The position numbers and the translations under genes are program-made. Shown here piece by piece: positions 11,038 to 58,829 of a stretch of DNA of 64,000 nt. The notes under the pieces are model-generated. The model was not told the origin of the DNA, did no database searches, and was given only the letters and a program-made list of their open reading frames with translations. Each line of letters begins with the position of its first letter. The stretch's first letter is position 1. This DNA is from Octopus vulgaris (lineage: Eukaryota): assembly GCA_951406725.2 (NCBI GenBank), contig OX597821.1:21080001-21144000 (forward strand). The letters run 5' to 3'.

Positions 11038-11180
<143 letters not shown>

Positions 11181-11296
11181 AATAGTAAAAAGTGAAAAAA
11201 CTACAGAAGACTTGTTTTAAGAGGTTAAAGAATATATATTCAAGTCAATATGTCTGAAGAATATTATAAATTTTTTCTTACAATGACATAGTTTAG

Positions 11297-11335
11297 AAGA
11301 AAGACCGGTTTCGCGTTTAGCTTTTCAAATTTCTT
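11297..11335 (-). ncRNA. Minimal hammerhead-like motif in the inverted arm (variant core UUGAAAA)
   Basis: Reverse complement of 15293-15331. Confidence 0.55.
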
Positions 11336-14300
11336 ACGTCGTTATGTTTATGTTGAGTGGAGTTATCGTTATGTTTATGTTGAAAAAAGTTCTAAATAAG
11401 GGGAGGTAATAAGTGATTTCTTCCGATGTAAGGGAGATAATCGCTTAAAATTCTTTTCCTTTCCTTTGGGGTGAATTTCTCTGTATAACTATGTTGGAAT
11501 GGTTAAGTCTGGGCTTGTACTTTTCAATGAAGAATGTTTCCTTGTTTAGTCTAGTTTGTGCTGATGATCCGAGAGCACATTGGTAAAATGGGAAGATTAA
11601 AAATTGTGGTAGTAGTTGCTTTGCGCATTTCTCAATGTATCGTTCTGTATTCTGGGAATGCAATCTGTTGTTGATGCAGTGTGAATCTACGTCTGAGTGA
11701 TAGCCCCGTGGATCCCACGTAGTCTTGGTGGCAGCACGAGCATTTTATGACATAAATTATGTTTTCAGAGGCACAAGTAAAATTAGATTTGATCTTGAAT
11801 TTCTGTCCCTATTTGAAACACAGAAGGACATCATACGCACCCGAATTAACCCAGCAAAAAGAAAAATAGGAAACATTGGGAATACAAACCTGCACAATAG
11901 AAAACTCGCCTTCTGGGACATGATAAAAAATTCCAACAAAGCAGATATATACGAGGGATGGATGAACTCAACACCAATTGTCCTCCCACGCAAATTCCAG
12001 ATAAAAATAATTCCTAACGAGCCTGACGGACAGAGAACTATTAGGGAATAGTCAGCTCTATTCAAGTTAAGATCAGAAATAGAGCTTCTAAAACTAAGGG
12101 CCTCCACAAATGAGGAAAAATTTAAAAGCATCGACGAGGAGATGCACGATATAATACAAAAAATCATATCGAAGGACAACCCCTCGAAAATACATTAGAT
12201 CATTGGAAGGATACCTGTGAAAAAGAAGAGAGAAATTCTCTCCTGCGCTGGGAAAAAAGCAACAATTTCTTCCAAAGATATAGTTTAACTTTCAAAAATG
12301 AATTGGGTACAAATAATCCCTTCCTTAAGAAAATTACAAAAAATAAAAAAGAAAAACCAAACAACCCACGAACAACCCCAACTATCCTCCATACACTAGA
12401 AACAGAAATCACCCACAACCAACATTTTCAAACCACGCAAGACTTAACAGGGAACAAGCTGACAGACAACGCGTCTATGAAATAAATTACACCAAAAACA
12501 GAACGCACCAACAATATCCTAATACCAGACCCAACCATCATACAGCACAAAACGTCACTAGAATAAGAAATACACCACACACAAGTCGCTACTACCCCAT
12601 GATTCAAAATTACTGGTCCCCACTGAACACAAGACAAACGCAAAAACCACTATGTCAAGCAACATCCCACATACAAGCAGTTCAAAACAAAAATATTTCA
12701 CATACAGAAATTTTACACACACCACAAACAAAAACAACCATAGATTCCCACACACACACAACAATCGGTGGCAACAATACCACCATTCCCCCGACCCAAT
12801 ATCACACAACCTCACAGACAACTCATACAATCAAAATTACACCCAACATTTTTTAGCCAGGGACCAGAGACACCAGGACACAGGCTGGAAAGTAGTAATA
12901 AGGAAAAACCGAAGATAATCAATCTTTCAACCAAACCTCTTTCTAACATAAAATTGACATCCTCTCAAAAGGGCTCAAATTTACACTAACTCCACGCAGA
13001 GCCAACCTAAATGAAATCAAGGATAATATAACAGAATTTTGCAGAAAATTAAGACTAGCAGAAGCATCAACCAGTTTCAATACTGAAGATGAATCACTAG
13101 TCAAGAACAAAAGTGAACGCATCCCCCACAGAGGAAGAAATAAAGATCTTGACGAATTCTGTAACCACATTGAGAACTTTCCCAACCATACTATACATAA
13201 ACAGAAAGTTAACTCAAATTTTAACACTACACAATGGAAGGAACTGATAGAACTTCAAAATGATGAAGATATAACCATTAAGGAAGCAGACAAGGGAAAT
13301 GCAGTTGTAATAATGGATATATCATACTATAGAAATCTTGTAATTTCCTTGCTTGATGACAACCTACATTATGAAAGAATTACCAACTACACCCCACAAA
13401 AAATAATGAAAACTCTATCTTCACTAATTAAAACCCATGAAAAGGAACTAACAACCAAAGAGATTGACTTTCTAACAAACTTTAAATGCAAACCTAGCCT
13501 TTTCTATGGTCTGCCAAAAATTCATAAATGAAACCATTAAAAAATCACCAAAGACATACACACACCTAACCCGGAGGACCTAAAACTACGACCCATTGTA
13601 GCTGGCCCAACCTGTGAAACACACAGACTAAGTCTATTTATGGACATCCTCCTGAAACCCTTCCTTAAACATATCGATAGCCATATCAGAGATGACTTAG
13701 ATATATTAAACCACCTTCCAAAAAAAGCCAAGGAAGAAACAATCATGGTTTCATTTGATGTAGTTAACTTATATACCAGTATACCTCATAATTATGGACT
13801 AGAGGCAATACAGTTCTGGCTGGACCAATTTCCGGAAGAAATACCAAAAGGATCAGTAAAGAATTCATTACTAAATCAATTGAATTCATCCTACATAATA
13901 ACCACTTCATGTTTGACAATACATTTTACCGTCAAAAATCCGGAATTGCTATGGGTACAAGGGCAGCACCAGTCATTGCGAACCTAACAATGGGCTACCT
14001 GGAAATAATCATTTACCAGGAATCTTTATCAATCTTTGGAAACCCCTCTCTCAATACATAAAAGAGAATTGGAAACGATTCCTGGACGATTGCTTTATAC
14101 TCTGGAATAAAAACACAGATAAACTCCTAAAATTTAAAAACCTATTGAAAAGCATAAACCCAAATATACAGTTCACAATGGAATACAACCAAAAGGAGCT
14201 CCCATTCTTGGATATACTAATTAAAAAAATTAACCTTAAAATAGAAACAGACATTTTTTACAAAGCCACAGACGCCAAGCAATACCTTCTTTTAATTCAT

Positions 14301-15292
14301 GCCACCCAAAACACACTAAAACAAACATCCCCTTCAACCTTGCAAGAAGAATATGCACAATAGTGTCAGAACAAAATACCAAGAACTTTAGACTGCAAGA
14401 ACTCAAAAACACCCTAATTGACAGACATTACCCAGCTCAACTCATAGAGGATGGGATCAGACGTGCAACAGAAATCAACATAGAAACTTTAAGAAAAGTT
14501 CAACACAACAACATACCTTCTCCGAAAATACTACCTTACATATCTACATACAACCCCAGAAACAAAGAAGCCTTCACCATCATCACCCAGAATTTACCAA
14601 TACTTCATAAGGACCCCAAATTAAAGGAAATTCTAAACATACACCAAATCATTAAAAGCTACAAACAACCTAAATCACTTAAAAAGGTTCTCACAAAGGC
14701 AAAATTGTTTTCTGAAATTACGGATGCAAAAGTAAAAAAATGTGGTAGACCGAACTGTGCAACATGTCCAAACCTGCTAGAAGGATCAGAATTCCTCTTC
14801 AAAGAGGGACAGAAATTCAAGATCAAATCTAATTTTACTTGTGCCTCTGAAAACATAATTTATGTCATAAAATGCTCGGGCTGCCACCAAGACTACATGG
14901 GATCCACGGGACTATCACTCAGACGTAGATGCACACTGCATCGACAACAGATTGCATTCCCAGAATACAGAATGATACCTTTAATGAGCACATTGAGAAA
15001 TGCGCAAAGCAACTACTACCACAATTTTTAATCTTTCCATTTTACCAATGTGCTCTCGGATCATCAACACAAACTAGACTAAACAAGGAAACATTCTTCA
15101 TTGAAAAGTACAAGCCCAGACTTAACCATTCCAACATAGTTATACAGAGAAATTCACCCCAAAGGAAAGGAAAAGAATTTTAAGCGATTATCTCCCTTAC
15201 ATCGGAAGAAATCACTTATTATCTCCCCTTATTTAGAACTTTTTTCAACATAAACATAACGATAACTCTACTCAACATAAACATAACGACGT

Positions 15293-15331
15293 AAGAAATT
15301 TGAAAAGCTAAACGCGAAACCGGTCTTTCTT
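15293..15331 (+). ncRNA. Minimal type I hammerhead-like motif in the Penelope 3' UTR (variant core)
   Basis: Stem I AAGAAA/TTTCTT; TTGAAAA in place of CTGANGA; GC-TAAAC-GC; GAAAC-CG-GTC with palindromic ACCGGT. Confidence 0.6.
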
Positions 15332-15485
15332 CTAAACTATGTCATTGTAAGGAAAAATATTCTTCAGACATATTGACTTAAATATATATTCTTTAACCTT
15401 TTAAAACAAGTCTTCTGTAGTTTTTTCACTGTTTACTATTTTCTCTATATTCAACCACGTCCTTTCACAAACCAACTTTCTTATC

Positions 15486-15545
<60 letters not shown>

Positions 15546-15547
<2 letters not shown>

Positions 15548-16067
15548 CAAAAGGGTAATAATATAGATTAGTACCAGTGGCCCAGCACAAAGGACGAATT
15601 AGTCATTAGACAAAATATTATTCATGTAGAAATATAATTAAGGGCTCCTAAATAAGGATGCCAAGTGCTAGGGACACAAAAAAGGGATAAATTTATCGAG
15701 AGCGAAAATCAAGAACATTTACCGATAACGTTACATCCCGGACTGATATCAGTTTCTACCTCTTTCTAGCAAAACAGACAGAATATGTTTCCTAAGGCTG
15801 GTTTCATCAGCGAGACGCCTCAGTTAGGACGAGATGCGCAGCGCGTTAGACCATGCGTTGATCTAAACAACTTGCAGATCTTAACTTTTCAAATCTCTGT
15901 GCAGACGCAAAACCTACCCGGCGATATAGGGCATGCCGGGAAGGAATTTTACGAATAAATCCATGTATCGTTATCGGTAAATATTTTTGATTTTCACTCT
16001 CGATAAATTTATCCCTTTTTTGTGTCCCTAGCACTTGGCATCCTTATTTAGGAGCCCTTAATTATAT
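15546..16067 (-). mobile_element. Non-coding hammerhead-bearing fold-back element in (TA)n
   Basis: Inverted arms 15632-15736 / 15963-16067; internal hammerhead; (TA)n on both sides. Confidence 0.75.
15733..15818 (-). ncRNA. Type I hammerhead ribozyme, intact core, extended stem II
   Basis: Minus strand: GCGTCTCG-CTGATGA-A-ACC...GGT-A-GAAA-CTGATATCAG-TC-CGGGATGT; 8-bp stem I (3 G.U pairs), palindromic stem III ACTGATATCAGT, GUC triplet. Confidence 0.85.
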
Positions 16068-18175: not shown

Positions 18176-20632
18176 GTTTCTTTATTGGCCACACAGGGCT
18201 GCACACAAACGGGACGGATTACAAAGTAGAGATTTTCTTTATTTGGAAAAAAAAATTGGGTTAGGTTTTCGAACAAAAGGGATCGTAAAAGGGAAAAAAG
18301 GAAAAAAAGAAAAAAAGGAAAAGAAACAAAAAAAAAACAAAAAGTAAAAAAGGAGTAAAAAAGGAAAACAGGAGAAAAAGAAAAAAAACGATTAATAGTG
18401 ATCGTGTATCACAGTGTCATGATGTACGGTGTAAAGGGGGAGGCAGATAAGGTTTATCCGTGGGAAGAAAAGCCGATGGAAAAGACCACGGTAACCTCGG
18501 TCAATATTGTTACATGTTACCACATTTGTTTGCAAGTGGGTAACCCTCTGTTTCCAATTTCTGGGTTCATAGGATTATGCTCAAGGTGGCTTCGTCATTC
18601 ATACGTGCCATCCTTGCTACATTCACCCATCTTTTTTTAAAACATTCGTTAGACATAACTTGCCTCTCTACTCTCACTTTCCTTTTCAAGTGGTACTTGA
18701 AGAAGTTGATGAGAGTTTGACCAGAGAGGAAAGTGTTTGTCTCCAATCCTTTCAGACGCGTCCACCAGATACATTCTTTCGCCATAGCCACAAGGATGAT
18801 GAAAATAGCTCTTCCTTCCCGTTTGAAGGAAGGAGGCGTAACAATATTGAAGATAGACTCAGCTGATAAACAGACTCGTCCCACACGTGACAGCAGTTGT
18901 TCGACATAGGCCCACAGGTCGGAAATTGTTGGACACTGCATGCGTGCGTGTAGAACGGTTTCGTTGCTCTGACCGCATCTCGGCCCCGTGTTTCTCGAGC
19001 CGTGTCTGTAGAACTTATCCCGAACGGGTAGCGCTTCTCCGTAGCACTGCCAGGACAGGGATCTCTGGAAGTTGTCCATGGGCCCTGGCCCGAAAGTCGT
19101 CCCGAACAGGCGGGTCAGGTATTCCTCGTCGACGTCCAGGTTCGCCACGAGCTCGTCGTCGTACCCCCTCCATTAATCCCCTATTGAATGCTTGGGTTGT
19201 GTTGGAGTCACTCAAGGTCGACCCGGGACGACAGAGTTGCTTGAGAGCAACGTGACACTCGCAGTGCCATTCGCCCTTCCTCGGCCACTTTTTGATCCAC
19301 GATTGCAGTTCGGTCATGGAGACGTGTTGCGGGAAAGCGTGCCTCACAAACGGCGACCACACCTGTTCACCGTCGTCTACGTAGAGCACCTGTCTGCGCA
19401 TCATCAACCACGGCATGGGGATTAATGGGGATTAATGGAGGGGGTACGACGACGAGCTCAGGGCGAACCTGGACATCGACGAGGAATACATGACCCGCCT
19501 GTTCGGGACGACTTTCGGGCCAGGGCCCATGGACAACTTCCAGAGATCCCTGGCCTGGCAGTGCTACGGAGAAGCGCTACCCGTTCGAGATAAGCTCTAC
19601 AAAGGGTGTTGACAGCAAATGGATCGCCTGACCATCGGGACGCATCCTTTCCACAAGAAGCGGAAGAGAATGCGTTCTAGTTTGGTGATGGTAGGATCGG
19701 GACAAGGCACGACGGCCAGGCGTTAGTAGATGATGGACGCGATGTACGAGTTCGCCAGCTCATCCCGACCTTTTAGGGACAGTTTCCTCTCGGTCCATTG
19801 CCGGGTGAGAGTGACCACCCTACTTGTTATCTCGTTCCAGTTCTTCTCCATTTGGAGGTCCTGAACAAACCAGACCCCGAGCAACTCGACTGGACCGTCG
19901 ATCCAGCGTCCCACGACGGAGGCGCTGGTGGACGGCATGGGCTTGCTTCTCCAGGTGCCGAGTCGCAAGCCCACTGATTTTTCCCGGTTTATTTTCGCTC
20001 CTGTCACCGCTTTGTAGTTTTTCAGTGTCTCGCCGACCTGCTCCATGGGCTCGTGGCTAGACACTATGACGGTGACGTCGTCCGCGTAAGCAGACACGCT
20101 CGTCCCGCATCCCAGTTCTCGCGGGATGTCCCTCAGAGTTGCCAGCTTCCGCAATAATGGCTCGAGAGTCAATACGTATAGAAGCGACGAGAGGGGGCAT
20201 CCCTGACGGACCGAACGTGCGATGTCGAACGGTCTCGATAGATGTCCATTTACGCGAATTTCCGAACAAATACCTCTGTACAAAGCGGCTGTCCAGCCAC
20301 GGAAGACGAGACCGAAGCCAGCCGCTCTGAGGACAGCCTCCAATTATCGATGGTCTACCCTATCGAAAGCTTTCGATTGATCCAAATTGATCAGCGCCCC
20401 ACCCATTCCAGGTTCCTTAACTACCATGTCTATGATGTGGCGTATTAGGTGGAGGTTGTCATGGATGCTCCGGCCCGGCACGGCGCACGTTTGTGCCTTG
20501 TCGACCAGTTTCTCGATGACAAGCGCCAACCTCTTGGCTAACACCTTGGCCAAAATTTTCAAGTCTGCATTAAGCAGAGTGATGGGCATAAAGTTATCTA
20601 TTACATTCCCCTTGTTTCGAACTTTCTTCAGC

Positions 20633-22240: not shown

Positions 22241-22332
22241 CCATATACATACATGCATACATACATACATACATACATACATACATACATACATACATAC
22301 ATACATACATAAAGGAGAAATAAGTTTATTAA

Positions 22333-22761
22333 ATCTCTGAGCGAGATATTAACAGTAGCATTACGGAATCGTAATATATAATTGCCAACCAAAGCCTCAG
22401 CTGGCTAATAACACACATTCTCCTTCTTCAACCTCAGTGACAGTTTGTCGCTGTAAAAAAGGATATAGTATTTTGCGAGTGAAATGAGTTATCATCACTA
22501 GCTAGTGATTAACACACGCTGAGGACAGGTAACCATCCAGAAACTTGTGTCCGTGTGTATCATGTAAGGCGAGAGACGTGGGGGAGGCGGATGACATCTC
22601 ATTCCAAATACTAATCGGACACACAATGTTAGCCAGCTGGAAGAGATGTCTTCCTGGGTCTATAAACGTCAGTAGCACAGTCCAGTAGAGGCCACCACAC
22701 TTGGTTGGCAATTATATGTTACGATTCCATATTGGTGCTGTTTATATCTGCGCTCAGAGAT
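22333..22761. mobile_element. MITE with ~60-bp TIRs flanked by TTAA
   Basis: ATCTCTGAGCG...TAATTGCCAACCAA / TTGGTTGGCAATTA...CGCTCAGAGAT; TTAA at 22329-22332 and 22762-22765. Confidence 0.75.
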
Positions 22762-22769
22762 TTAATATA

Positions 22770-22978
22770 TATTTCTTTACTACCCACAAGGGGCTAAACA
22801 CAGACGGACAGAGAAACTGATTAAGTCGATTACATTGACCCCAGTGCGTAACTGGTACTTAATTTATCGACCCCGAAATGATGAAAGCCAAAGTCGACCT
22901 CGGCGGAATTTGAACCCAGAACGTAACGGCAGACGAAATACGGCTACGTATTTCGCCCGGCGTGCTAACGTTTCTGCC
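22770..22978 (-). mobile_element. tRNA-derived SINE (family B) with 12-bp TSD
   Basis: Family B core; TSD AGATTTAATATA at 22758-22769 and 22979-22990. Confidence 0.9.
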
Positions 22979-36464: not shown

Positions 36465-36710
36465 GTACACACACTCTCTCTCTCCTGGTTTGATTTCGTT
36501 CCGAACTTGCACACTTCGTTAATTTCCGTAAATATTTATATATTTCCTTTTTGCTCGTCGTGTTCAGCTCTATGTATTTGTAGTCAGTTACACACGCACA
36601 CGTGTGTTTTTGTATGTAGGTTTATATACATTTATGCATATGAATGAGCCGCTGTGTGTGTGTGACTGAAGGGCTGTGTTTTCATGTGAATGTACATACA
36701 TAAATACATA

Positions 36711-36928
36711 TACATTATTTACATTATTTACATTTGACGGATATTTATACTTATCTTGTTTGTTGTTAACACAACGTTTCGGCTGATATACACTCCAGCC
36801 TTCATCTGGTGTCTTGGGGAAATTTCAAACCTGGATTCTCACTCATTAACAACAAACAAGACGAGGACAAATATCCGTCAGATGTAAATAATGTATATAA
36901 TTCCTCATCTCTTAAATATAGAACTGTA
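36711..36928. mobile_element. Fold-back copy of the hammerhead SINE (3' part)
   Basis: Homologous to 57845-57976; inverted arms 36720-36769 / 36846-36895. Confidence 0.8.
36768..36813 (-). ncRNA. Minimal hammerhead motif with one core mutation
   Basis: GACAC-CAGATGA-A-GGCTG...CAGCC-GAAAC-GTT-GTGTT. Confidence 0.7.
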
Positions 36929-36963
36929 TTATAAATACATATGCATACACCTTTTTCTATGTA

Positions 36964-45574: not shown

Positions 45575-45577
<3 letters not shown>

Positions 45578-46020
45578 ATTCTATAATTATTACTATAATT
45601 ATAATCAGGGTTCAGCAAAATGTGCTTCACCACATACCGAAATGTAGAAATAACAGTTAAACTACTATTTGACTACCATAAGATATCTCCCAGACAGCAG
45701 TACGCAACAACTCACGCAAGTAAAGAGAAATAGATAACGAATCCACCCGGCTATGATTAACTGTGTACGCGTTTCGGAGTTAGAGAGATGTGAAAAATGT
45801 AAAATCATATTTCTACTCACTCATTCTCCTCATTAGTACAGTAATTCAAAATTTTAAATTTGAGAGCACAGAAAATTAACATACGCAATTTGACCAATTA
45901 TGCTCATAATTATAGAATTTTTGTATAAGTTTACCGATAATGGTTCTTTTAGCATACCGAAATAATTGATAAAGTTATTAATTATTAATTAATTAATTTT
46001 ACCCTTTATTGTTATTGATA
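45575..46020 (-). mobile_element. Non-coding hammerhead-bearing element in (TA)n
   Basis: ACTGTA-CTAATGA-GGAG...CTCC-GAAAC-GC-GTA-CACAGT at 45760-45842; short inverted arm AATTCTATAATTAT (45577) / ATAATTATAGAATT (45906). Confidence 0.65.
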
Positions 46021-46021
46021 G

Positions 46022-46072
<51 letters not shown>

Positions 46073-49831: not shown

Positions 49832-49882
<51 letters not shown>

Positions 49883-49886
<4 letters not shown>

Positions 49887-50528
49887 TAAGGATAACTTCT
49901 TAATAAGGAATCTTAACAAGAAATTATCAGGTAGATAACGTGAAAAACCTCATAAGAGAAAAATTTCGAAAATAATTCTTTCTTATTGAACATATTAATT
50001 TATATATAGAGGGCATTTATCTGTAATAATGCCCTCTATATATAAATTAATATGTTCAATAAGAAAGAATTATTTTCGAAATTTTTCTCTTATGAGGTTT
50101 TTCACGCTATCTACCTGATAATTTCTTGTTAAGATTCCTTATTAAGAAGTTATCCTTAATTGTTAAATAATTTTATTCCGAAAAAACTTTTCCTAACCGA
50201 AATGCAATTCGAAGAAGCCTGCCATTTACCGGATGTATTATATGTAAACTTCCCCATGTGCGTCGTTGGGGTTGAACAGATAGCTGTTCGGCTTTGACGG
50301 TACAGGTTCGTTTATTTATGATATGTTCAGAATCAGTCTTGCTGAGTACGGTCGAATCTTCGATAAGTACGAAATCACAGGGGATACAAGACTAAATTCA
50401 TTTTTTTAAATGTCTTGCTTCGGAAAAATTGCATTGGATATGATTAGTAAAACATTTTTTGGTAGAAATGACTAATGTCCCTCTTAGCGTGTGGCATGTA
50501 TGTGTAATAATGCCCTCTATATATAAAT
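49883..50528 (+). mobile_element. Retrozyme-like element: palindrome plus hammerhead-bearing unit in (TA)n
   Basis: ~135-bp near-perfect arms 49883-50017 / 50030-50163; terminal direct repeat TGTAATAATGCCCTCTATATATAAAT at ~50022 and ~50503; hammerhead remnant at 50335-50393. Confidence 0.7.
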
Positions 50529-57721: not shown

Positions 57722-57976
57722 ACATGCCCACGGGCATGTGGCGTAGTGGTTAAGAGCGCCGGCTACTAACCGCAATATTCCGAGTTCGATTCCAGGTAGT
57801 GACCTTAATAATAATAATAACAGCACCAAAAAAAAACCCTTAGGAATGAGAACCCACGTTCGAAATTTCCCCACGAAACCTGATGAAGGCTGGAGGGTAT
57901 ATCAGCTGAAACGTTGTGTTAACCACAAACAAGATTAGGACAAACATCCGTCAAATATAAATAATGTAAATAATGT
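57722..57976 (+). mobile_element. tRNA-headed SINE carrying a hammerhead ribozyme, 12-bp TSD
   Basis: A box TGGCGTAGTGG (57739), B box GTTCGATTCC (57784), hammerhead at 57875-57920, TSD ATCGATCAAAAT at 57710-57721 and 57977-57988. Confidence 0.85.
57875..57920 (+). ncRNA. Minimal type I hammerhead ribozyme
   Basis: GAAAC-CTGATGA-A-GGCTG-GAGGGTATAT-CAGCT-GAAAC-GTT-GTGTT; loopless palindromic stem III. Confidence 0.75.
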
Positions 57977-58829
57977 ATCGATCAAAATGTTACAATCCAT
58001 TACAATCGAGTACCCGCGTTACATGTAAATAAGTAACTCTATGAAGTTCTCTACGAAAACGAAGTCCTCAAAGATCCTAATAATAGGATGCTCAATAATC
58101 TGATGCGGACAGTATCAGACGTTGTGTCAGGGTAAATCGGTTTTGATTTTCAATGTAGTAGGATACAGTGTCAATTCCTGAATTCAAAATAAAAAGGAAA
58201 ATATTTGTTTGTTAATAAAGGAGGTAACAATTTTTGTTTCCAAATCACATGCGATGCACCGTAGGTGAGTGTCTTACACCTCCGAGACGACCAGTGATTT
58301 CTGAATGTATATGGCAGGCGGAAAGTGAAAGAAGTACATCGTATGTGTGTGTGTGTATGTGCGTGTGTTTGCTTGTGTTCGTGTTTGTGTTTCTTCCTCA
58401 AGCGCTCGCTAAACGGTATCCGTTTGATTATATTCTCGTACTCTTAGCGATTCCGCAGACAGACGTGACTGATACAATAAGTACCAAAGTCAAAATATGC
58501 CTACTGGGTCAATTTGTCGTCTGGAACCCTTCGAAGCAGGGCTCCAATATAGATGCAGTGCAATAACTGCAGCAAATTATCTCTTAAAAAATGAGAAAGA
58601 TACAAATCTCTTGGATAAAATCCTTTGACAGAAAGTATTACAGCTAATGCCGCCTCACACTTCAACACGCTTTATAAATGATACACAAACTGTTGTCAAG
58701 TGTGTCTCTTATAAAAATATCTAAATAGAAATTTTATATTATAATTCCATGTTAATTTATGTTCCAAGTACCACCTTATATAGACTGTTATATTAATAAT
58801 TATTTCATTATCTAATCGGCTGAATAAAT

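What the first reader, a model, noticed from the sequence alone, without database searches (positions are those of the whole stretch)
15733..16067. Inversion breakpoints fall next to hammerhead cleavage sites
Seen: in the 15.5-16.1 kb element the predicted cut lies between 15741 and 15740, and the inverted arm (15963 onward) copies sequence starting at 15736, 4 nt downstream. In the unrelated 36.7 kb element the inverted arm (36846 onward) starts 3 nt after the GTT site. At 45867 a CACAG..TTAA.CATA stretch weakly resembles the post-cleavage sequence of the 45.76 kb ribozyme. Inference: the second, outward-facing cDNA was copied from the self-cleaved 3' RNA fragment and ran off its 5' end, leaving a genomic footprint of ribozyme activity during insertion. 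The sample is two clear cases and one weak case.
Basis: partly seen in the sequence, partly recalled or inferred. Interest (0 to 1): 0.72.

Follow-up and report, generated by a model that had tools for sequence, protein, structure and literature searches.

The report
Penelope twin-primed insertions, faint ribozyme footprint
These back-to-back repeats are ordinary insertions of Penelope-type jumping genes whose joints fall all along the element; only one of four families shows a small excess of joints and tiny deletions at the predicted self-cutting site of its RNA, which likely records occasional cutting but is not what builds the inversions.

Summary
Both 'clear' cases are real: inverted arms start at +5 (15963) and +4 (36846) after predicted hammerhead cuts, each with 2-nt microhomology. 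The third is wrong (true joint 45896/7; arms start about -129 and +169), and a fourth fold-back hammerhead element next door (11178-15485) joins at -527. Genome-wide, joints scatter; three families show no clear peak. In the abundant SINE-like family of 36.7 kb, +1..+7 is the hottest of eight windows (3.1% vs 0.3-1.8%), mostly symmetric hairpins at a palindrome right after the cut (23 loci; control palindromes 1, 2, 0; RNA 5' end 308). About 7% of its arms carry a 3-nt deletion spanning the cut, often in one arm only (17 of 25 pairs). Exactly one arm carries the Penelope 'tail' in 163 of 172 pairs. Best reading: two target-primed cDNAs, one from each start site, likely of one RNA, joined by microhomology; cleavage is an occasional side event (about even odds), not the cause. 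The architecture is published. The scan has noted similar cut-site signals before, in this and other genomes.

The parts
15546..15962 (-). Element 1 long arm (family 1, 457-nt tandem unit with hammerhead); starts at -223, ends at the long (tail) site about +219
15735..15816 (-). Type I hammerhead, palindromic stem III, long stem II; predicted cut 15741/15740
   Evidence: cleavage untested
15963..16067 (+). Element 1 inverted arm, +5 (to +7 with microhomology) to the short site +108, runs into (TA)n
36708..36844 (-). Element 2 long arm (family 2 SINE-like element), -71 to the short site about +62, no tail
36768..36813 (-). Minimal hammerhead (core with one change in this copy, palindromic 15.2-16.2, H17 = U at 36773)
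   Evidence: no Rfam hit
36846..36930 (+). Element 2 inverted arm, +4 (to +6) to +97, carries the 34-nt tail
45577..45897 (-). Element 3 long arm (family 3), about -129 to +192; hammerhead H17 = 45766; position 45867 is internal, not a joint
45896..46026 (+). Element 3 inverted arm, about +169 to +306 (tail side)
11818..15485 (+). Element 4: decayed autonomous Penelope-type element (RT-like and GIY-YIG-like reading frames in pieces), hammerhead with U3-A8 core, H17 = 15325, tail present
   Evidence: Pfam gave no significant hit on the pieces
11178..11817 (-). Element 4 inverted arm, starts at -527, no tail: counter-example in the same window
57725..57977 (+). Full-length, non-inverted family 2 copy (tRNA-like head, (AAT)n, hammerhead, short 3' end)

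Best explanation
These are head-to-head insertions of Penelope-like elements and their non-autonomous derivatives, likely made when both ends of a cut AT-rich target prime reverse transcription, one at the element's long (tail) start site and one at its short start site, probably on the same RNA, and the two cDNA ends are likely joined by short microhomology wherever they stop. Shown: joints scatter along the element; one arm has the tail in 163 of 172 pairs; arms share rare variants above chance. Inferred: in family 2 a minority of templates were already nicked by the hammerhead; cDNAs then either ran off at the nick (hairpins on the palindrome at +2..+9, about one for every 13 hairpins at the RNA's 5' end) or jumped the nick by a 2-nt GT microhomology (3-nt deletion in about 7% of arms). 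Odds that these family-2 signals record cleavage: about even. Element 1's +5 joint is most likely chance plus microhomology; element 2's +4 joint may be a run-off (about 35%).
For: Tail on exactly one arm in 163 of 172 family-2 pairs, 86 expected, both-tail 2 vs 40.5; same asymmetry in window elements 1, 2 and 4. Arms share 30 rare non-CpG variants vs mean 7.4, max 15, in 200 shuffles. In elements 1 and 2 the short arm cannot be a snap-back copy in the simple sense for element 2, because neither arm contains the other. Two RT start sites defining the tail, cleavage and extension of both strands, predicted dimer, hammerhead cleavage dispensable in vitro (PMC11167929, parts 1-2 of 4 read). Joint rates per 7 nt in family 2: 1.52, 1.77, 0.76, 1.05, 0.55, 3.10 (+1..+7), 0.33, 0.83%. 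Hairpins 23 vs 1, 2, 0 and 308. Cut-spanning 3-nt deletion: 13 of 173 arms, the commonest indel; 883 exact matches vs 12,123 anchors; one arm only in 17 of 25 pairs, 5 of these 17 sharing other minor variants, L614 three, whereas the source variant at +38 is in both arms in 23 of 34 pairs.
Against: Control windows are themselves heterogeneous (p = 0.008), and without hairpins +1..+7 (2.11%) is close to the hottest control (1.67%). Plain 5' truncations are not clearly enriched at the cut (11 vs 6.8, p = 0.10) and only 2 of 83 partner starts lie there. Starts peak at +2..+5 rather than at +1. Palindromes at inverted joints are a known Penelope trait explained without ribozymes (PMC3846280, passages). 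No peak in families 1, 3, 4 and no matching deletion scar in families 1 and 3. The deletion is scarce on the +38G background (1 of 41 vs 40 of 235, p = 0.015) and uneven along contig C1 (2 matches in the first 19.3 Mb, about 7 expected), as a sub-lineage would be; the neighbouring AAC repeat also slips (7 of 173). One RNA versus two is not shown: a fixed long/short division of labour in a dimer gives the same asymmetry.
Confidence: 0.6

Rival explanations
1. No cleavage footprint at all: the family-2 excess comes from the 8-nt palindrome and T/G-rich microhomologies at +2..+9, or from RT pausing at the foot of stem I, and the 3-nt deletion is a co-active sub-lineage or slippage.
For: T-rich control windows without a cut reach 1.5-1.8%; direct jumps also land on the GTTAA microhomology; a pile-up at -10..-7 near the foot of stem II; sub-lineage signs for the deletion; three other families flat.
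Against: Same-template pairs discordant for the deletion.
Confidence: 0.4
2. One reading: the outward-facing arm is normally copied from the self-cleaved 3' fragment and runs off its 5' end.
For: Two window cases; top window in family 2; 11 of 14 scored non-hairpin +1..+7 arms carry the tail, not significantly above controls (p = 0.23).
Against: Only a few per cent of arms start there; 2 of 58 in family 1, 1 of 26 in family 3; elements 3 and 4 in the window contradict it; Naiads lack canonical hammerheads yet invert (PMC8557442).
Confidence: 0.05
3. Self-priming or snap-back: one cDNA (or an antisense template) folds back at a palindrome and copies itself.
For: Proposed for palindromic joints in PMC3846280; hairpin arms share private variants (L494, L501, L503).
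Against: In hairpins and other pairs one arm ends at the short site and the other at the tail (13 of 15 hairpins by eye; 163 of 172); in element 2 neither arm contains the other.
Confidence: 0.12
4. A new copy inserted, reversed, into an older copy at its TTAA, leaving the older 3' part as the short arm.
For: Penelope endonuclease prefers AT-rich sites and may home to its own repeat (PMC11167929).
Against: None of the 21 family-2 loci with a +1..+7 arm shows the predicted upstream remnant beyond the long arm.
Confidence: 0.03

Closest known systems
Endonuclease-positive Penelope-like element insertions (PMC3846280, PMC8557442; passages read)
   Same: 5'-truncated unit with adjacent inverted truncated copy, 30-40-nt tail at one end, microhomology at the 5' joint, palindromes at inverted joints, microsatellite targets, hammerhead near the 3' end.
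   Different: Those passages give no count of tail asymmetry and no map of joints against the cut; they ascribe the tail to endonuclease resolution and the palindromes to self-priming. Family 1 and 3 tails are about 110 nt.
Poseidon element of the green anole in vitro (PMC11167929; parts 1-2 of 4 read)
   Same: Two internal RT start sites that define the tail; both strands cut and extended; protein-assisted hammerhead whose cutting is not needed.
   Different: It found no RNA reads ending at the cut; here the possible trace is in genomic joints, and the one-long-one-short pairing is shown statistically.
Minimal type I hammerheads of PLEs (PMC4209133; parts 1-2 of 4 read)
   Same: Core, extra base before stem II, palindromic 15.2-16.2, pairs on opposite strands 100-700 bp apart, U3-A8 variant (element 4).
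   Different: Activity in vivo was left open there; family 2 has U at position 17.
Animal non-LTR retrozymes (PMC7229834 passages; bioRxiv 10.64898/2026.07.22.740005 parts 1-2 of 5)
   Same: Family 1 is a 457-nt non-coding tandem unit with a type I hammerhead, a likely non-autonomous PLE derivative.
   Different: Mostly partial tandems with tails and inversions rather than long arrays; circular RNA not tested. Family 2 has a tRNA-like head instead.
R2 HDV-like ribozyme (PMC3774820, PMC3414825; abstracts in listing only) and L1 twin priming (recalled, not read)
   Same: A ribozyme cut can fix the 5' joint of an insertion (R2); both target ends can prime on one RNA and give an inversion (L1).
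   Different: In R2 the cut defines the normal 5' end; here at most a few per cent of arms. In L1 the two arms do not overlap; here both contain the 3' end.

Membership tests
EN+ Penelope-like element (element 4) | RT plus C-terminal GIY-YIG reading frame | tested here: inconclusive
   Frames in pieces with Penelope-like RT motifs by eye; nearest Atlas clusters carry GIY-YIG and PF26215 at 0.96; no significant Pfam hit.
EN+ Penelope-like element (all four) | Inverted 5'-truncated copy adjacent, tail at one end only | tested here: met
EN+ Penelope-like element (all four) | Insertion into AT-rich or microsatellite DNA | tested here: met
   (TA)n or AT-rich flanks seen directly; target duplications not scored.
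EN+ Penelope-like element (families 1-3) | 3' end shared with an autonomous partner | tested here: inconclusive
   No partner found among fetched loci; no dedicated search was made.
Type I hammerhead ribozyme | Conserved core, stems I and II, NUH, stem III or palindrome | tested here: met
   the window copies of families 2 and 3 each have one core change.
Type I hammerhead ribozyme | Self-cleavage | not testable with these tools
   RNA-seq lay was uninformative.
Non-LTR retrozyme (family 1) | Tandem non-coding unit of a few hundred bases with a type I hammerhead | tested here: met
   457-nt unit, partial tandems and dimers; slightly above the 150-450 range quoted in PMC7229834.
Non-LTR retrozyme (family 1) | Expressed as circular RNA | not tested
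   No lay was made for family 1.
tRNA-derived SINE (family 2) | Head with Pol III A and B boxes and tRNA likeness | tested here: inconclusive
   A- and B-box-like motifs by eye (motifs recalled); ARAGORN none in 5 loci; Rfam none.

The most novel reading that the evidence does not exclude
In the family-2 SINE a sizeable share of templates were nicked by the minimal hammerhead while bound to the Penelope protein, and the genome records it three ways: twin run-offs sealed as hairpins just after the cut, single run-offs, and thousands-scale 3-nt scars where the reverse transcriptase jumped the nick. This would be genomic evidence that Penelope-type hammerheads cut in vivo during retrotransposition and that both arms come from one RNA primed at two sites.
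Probability: 0.4. Interest if true: 0.72.

Novelty: new variant of a known kind. Interest (0 to 1): 0.45.

Why it matters
Whether Penelope hammerheads cut in vivo, and how the inverted, one-tailed insertions arise, are open questions in the papers read (PMC8557442, PMC4209133, PMC11167929). The 163-of-172 one-tail rule gives a concrete twin-priming model, and the hairpin and deletion counts give a cheap genomic assay for cleavage that can be run on core-dead sub-families. The finding as first stated (inversions made by run-off at the cut) does not hold as a rule.

Tried and rejected
Whole-window Rfam scan: top 150 of 212 matches were microsatellite noise, no hammerhead among them. Treating 45867 as a joint: rejected. 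Exclusion screen for family 3: too rare (1 hit, 25 anchors). Family 4 screen: 10 of 461, 6 at +1..+7, but 30 unselected copies gave 2 starts at +1..+7 and 11 between -58 and -6, so no clear excess. First screen design was swamped by the 3-nt deletion and was not used for joint rates. RNA: no RNA holder listed; three unstranded raw RNA-seq runs added by species label showed no place where many molecules begin or end, which such libraries would not be expected to show. Homing into older copies: rejected. Autonomous partners of families 1-3: not found in loci held. Literature searches that found no report mapping PLE joints to the hammerhead cut or applying twin priming to PLEs: (open-access library only; supplements not read).

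Full report
Coordinates: H17 of the hammerhead is 0 and the first base after the predicted cut is +1. The window lies in G000, a 2.8-Gb microsatellite-rich animal genome.

Observation. Element 1 has a type I hammerhead on the minus strand with H17 at 15741 and an inverted arm from 15963 that starts at +5, with 2 nt shared by both arms. Element 2 has a minimal hammerhead with H17 at 36773 and an inverted arm from 36846 that starts at +4 after a 4-nt stutter and 2-nt microhomology. The third case fails: the long arm runs through 45867 to 45897 and the inverted arm starts near +169. Next to element 1 lies a fourth fold-back hammerhead element, a decayed autonomous Penelope-type copy, whose inverted arm starts at -527. 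In the window 2 of 8 arm starts lie at +1..+7.

What the elements are. Family 1 is a 457-nt non-coding tandem unit ending at +108 or about +220. Family 2 is a SINE-like element: tRNA-like head, (AAT)n linker, hammerhead, 3' end at +62 or, with a 34-nt tail, +97; 12,123 exact matches to one 18-mer. Families 3 and 4 also have a short and a long end. Inverted truncated copies, a tail at one end, microhomology and palindromes at joints are published Penelope traits (PMC3846280 and PMC8557442, passages).

Test in families 1, 3, 4. Family 1: 30 best BLAST loci plus 82 of 86 exact-pattern hits gave 29 inverted loci; 2 of 58 starts lie at +1..+7, one being this window's copy, against 28 starts within -60..+60 (counted by eye after removing duplicate rows). 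Family 3: 1 of 26 starts, picked by the screen itself, with 7-nt microhomology. Family 4: 10 of 461 screen hits, 6 at +1..+7, but the unselected background is as high. No clear peak.

Test in family 2. Patterns demanding an exact anchor and four mismatches upstream gave 663 of 12,123, 159 of 6,890, 141 of 6,919 and 337 of 10,274. Of the first 100, 100, 73 and 88 listed hits I fetched 77, 63, 70 and 70; the rest were judged by eye to be short indels, internal deletions or duplicates, so the direct-jump class is undercounted in two sets, and the sets cover different contigs. After correcting for detection, inversion starts per 7 nt were 1.52, 1.77, 0.76, 1.05, 0.55, 3.10 (+1..+7; 22 vs 6.9 expected), 0.33 and 0.83%; controls are heterogeneous (p = 0.008). 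Seven of the 22 are near-symmetric hairpins (0.4 expected); without them the rate is 2.11% against 1.67% in the hottest control. Plain truncations were 11 vs 6.8 (p = 0.10). Of 83 partner starts, 15 lie at the element's 5' end and 2 at +1..+7. Whole-genome counts of 26-nt perfect hairpins: 23 at the palindrome +2..+9, 1 at the matched 8-nt palindrome -53..-46, 2 at -5..0, 0 at -56..-51, 308 at the 5' end; the last three patterns allowed CpG decay.

How the pair is made. In 172 head-to-head pairs (from loci chosen by their 5' side, not by tail) exactly one arm has the tail in 163, both in 2, neither in 7; 86 discordant expected. Arms share 30 rare non-CpG variants against 7.4 in shuffles. With two RT start sites, both-strand extension and a predicted dimer in vitro (PMC11167929), the simplest model is twin priming, one end at each site, likely on one RNA, then microhomology joining (inference). 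Snap-back cannot give element 2, where neither arm contains the other; homing into an older copy leaves a remnant that none of 21 loci shows.

A second possible footprint. A 3-nt deletion whose 2-nt microhomology flanks the cut is the commonest indel in family 2 (13 of 173 arms; 883 exact matches). Other 2-nt microhomologies outside the AAC repeat give 0-2 arms; the AAC repeat gives 7 to 11. It is in one arm only in 17 of 25 pairs, 5 of which share other minor variants, while the source variant at +38 is in both arms in 23 of 34. This is what a jump from the 5' end of the cut 3' fragment onto the 3' end of the 5' fragment would leave (inference). Against it: it is rare on the +38G background, uneven along C1, and has no counterpart in families 1 and 3. 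I first filed it as a sub-family and re-examined it after reading note e1-9120866.

Verdict. The inversions are ordinary Penelope-type products and do not need the ribozyme. One family carries a small, specific excess at the cut that is about as likely to record cleavage as to reflect palindrome, pausing and sub-lineage effects. I found no paper mapping such joints to the cut, but the scan's own notes report similar and opposite results on other DNA (unchecked).

Noticed in passing
window 11178-15485: Decayed near-full-length autonomous Penelope-type element with inverted arm, one-sided tail and a hammerhead with the U3-A8 core; 461 exact anchors genome-wide; 4 of 16 arms have one extra base at +1.
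   Followed up: partly
L159, L207, L209, L297, L359 upstream of the family-2 head: Several copies share about 40 nt upstream of the head with a TATA-like stretch and a small hairpin at the start, perhaps the flank of a source gene.
   Followed up: no
window 57725-57977: Family 2 looks like a tRNA-headed SINE with a hammerhead and a Penelope-type 3' end; no such SINE turned up; partner not found.
   Followed up: partly
G000:C2:2734234-2735993: Tandem array, period about 215 nt, of family-2 units that all carry the 3-nt deletion.
   Followed up: no
family 1, -8..-5: 30 of 67 arms lack 2 nt in stem III, which stays a perfect palindrome, as a dimer-dependent ribozyme would need.
   Followed up: no
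L581: Family-4 copy with a tandem duplication of +1..+12 starting at the cut.
   Followed up: no
window 49882-50163: Fold-back with 136-nt arms, 99% complementary, 10-nt spacer, no hammerhead core found by my scan.
   Followed up: no
window 19007-19601, 22316-22776, 1565-1776: GC-rich inverted duplication (175 nt, 96%) and two elements with terminal inverted repeats, MITE-like.
   Followed up: no
L197:2281-2957 (-): RT frame (RVT_1, E 6e-8) 0.8 kb upstream of a family-2 copy; link untested.
   Followed up: no
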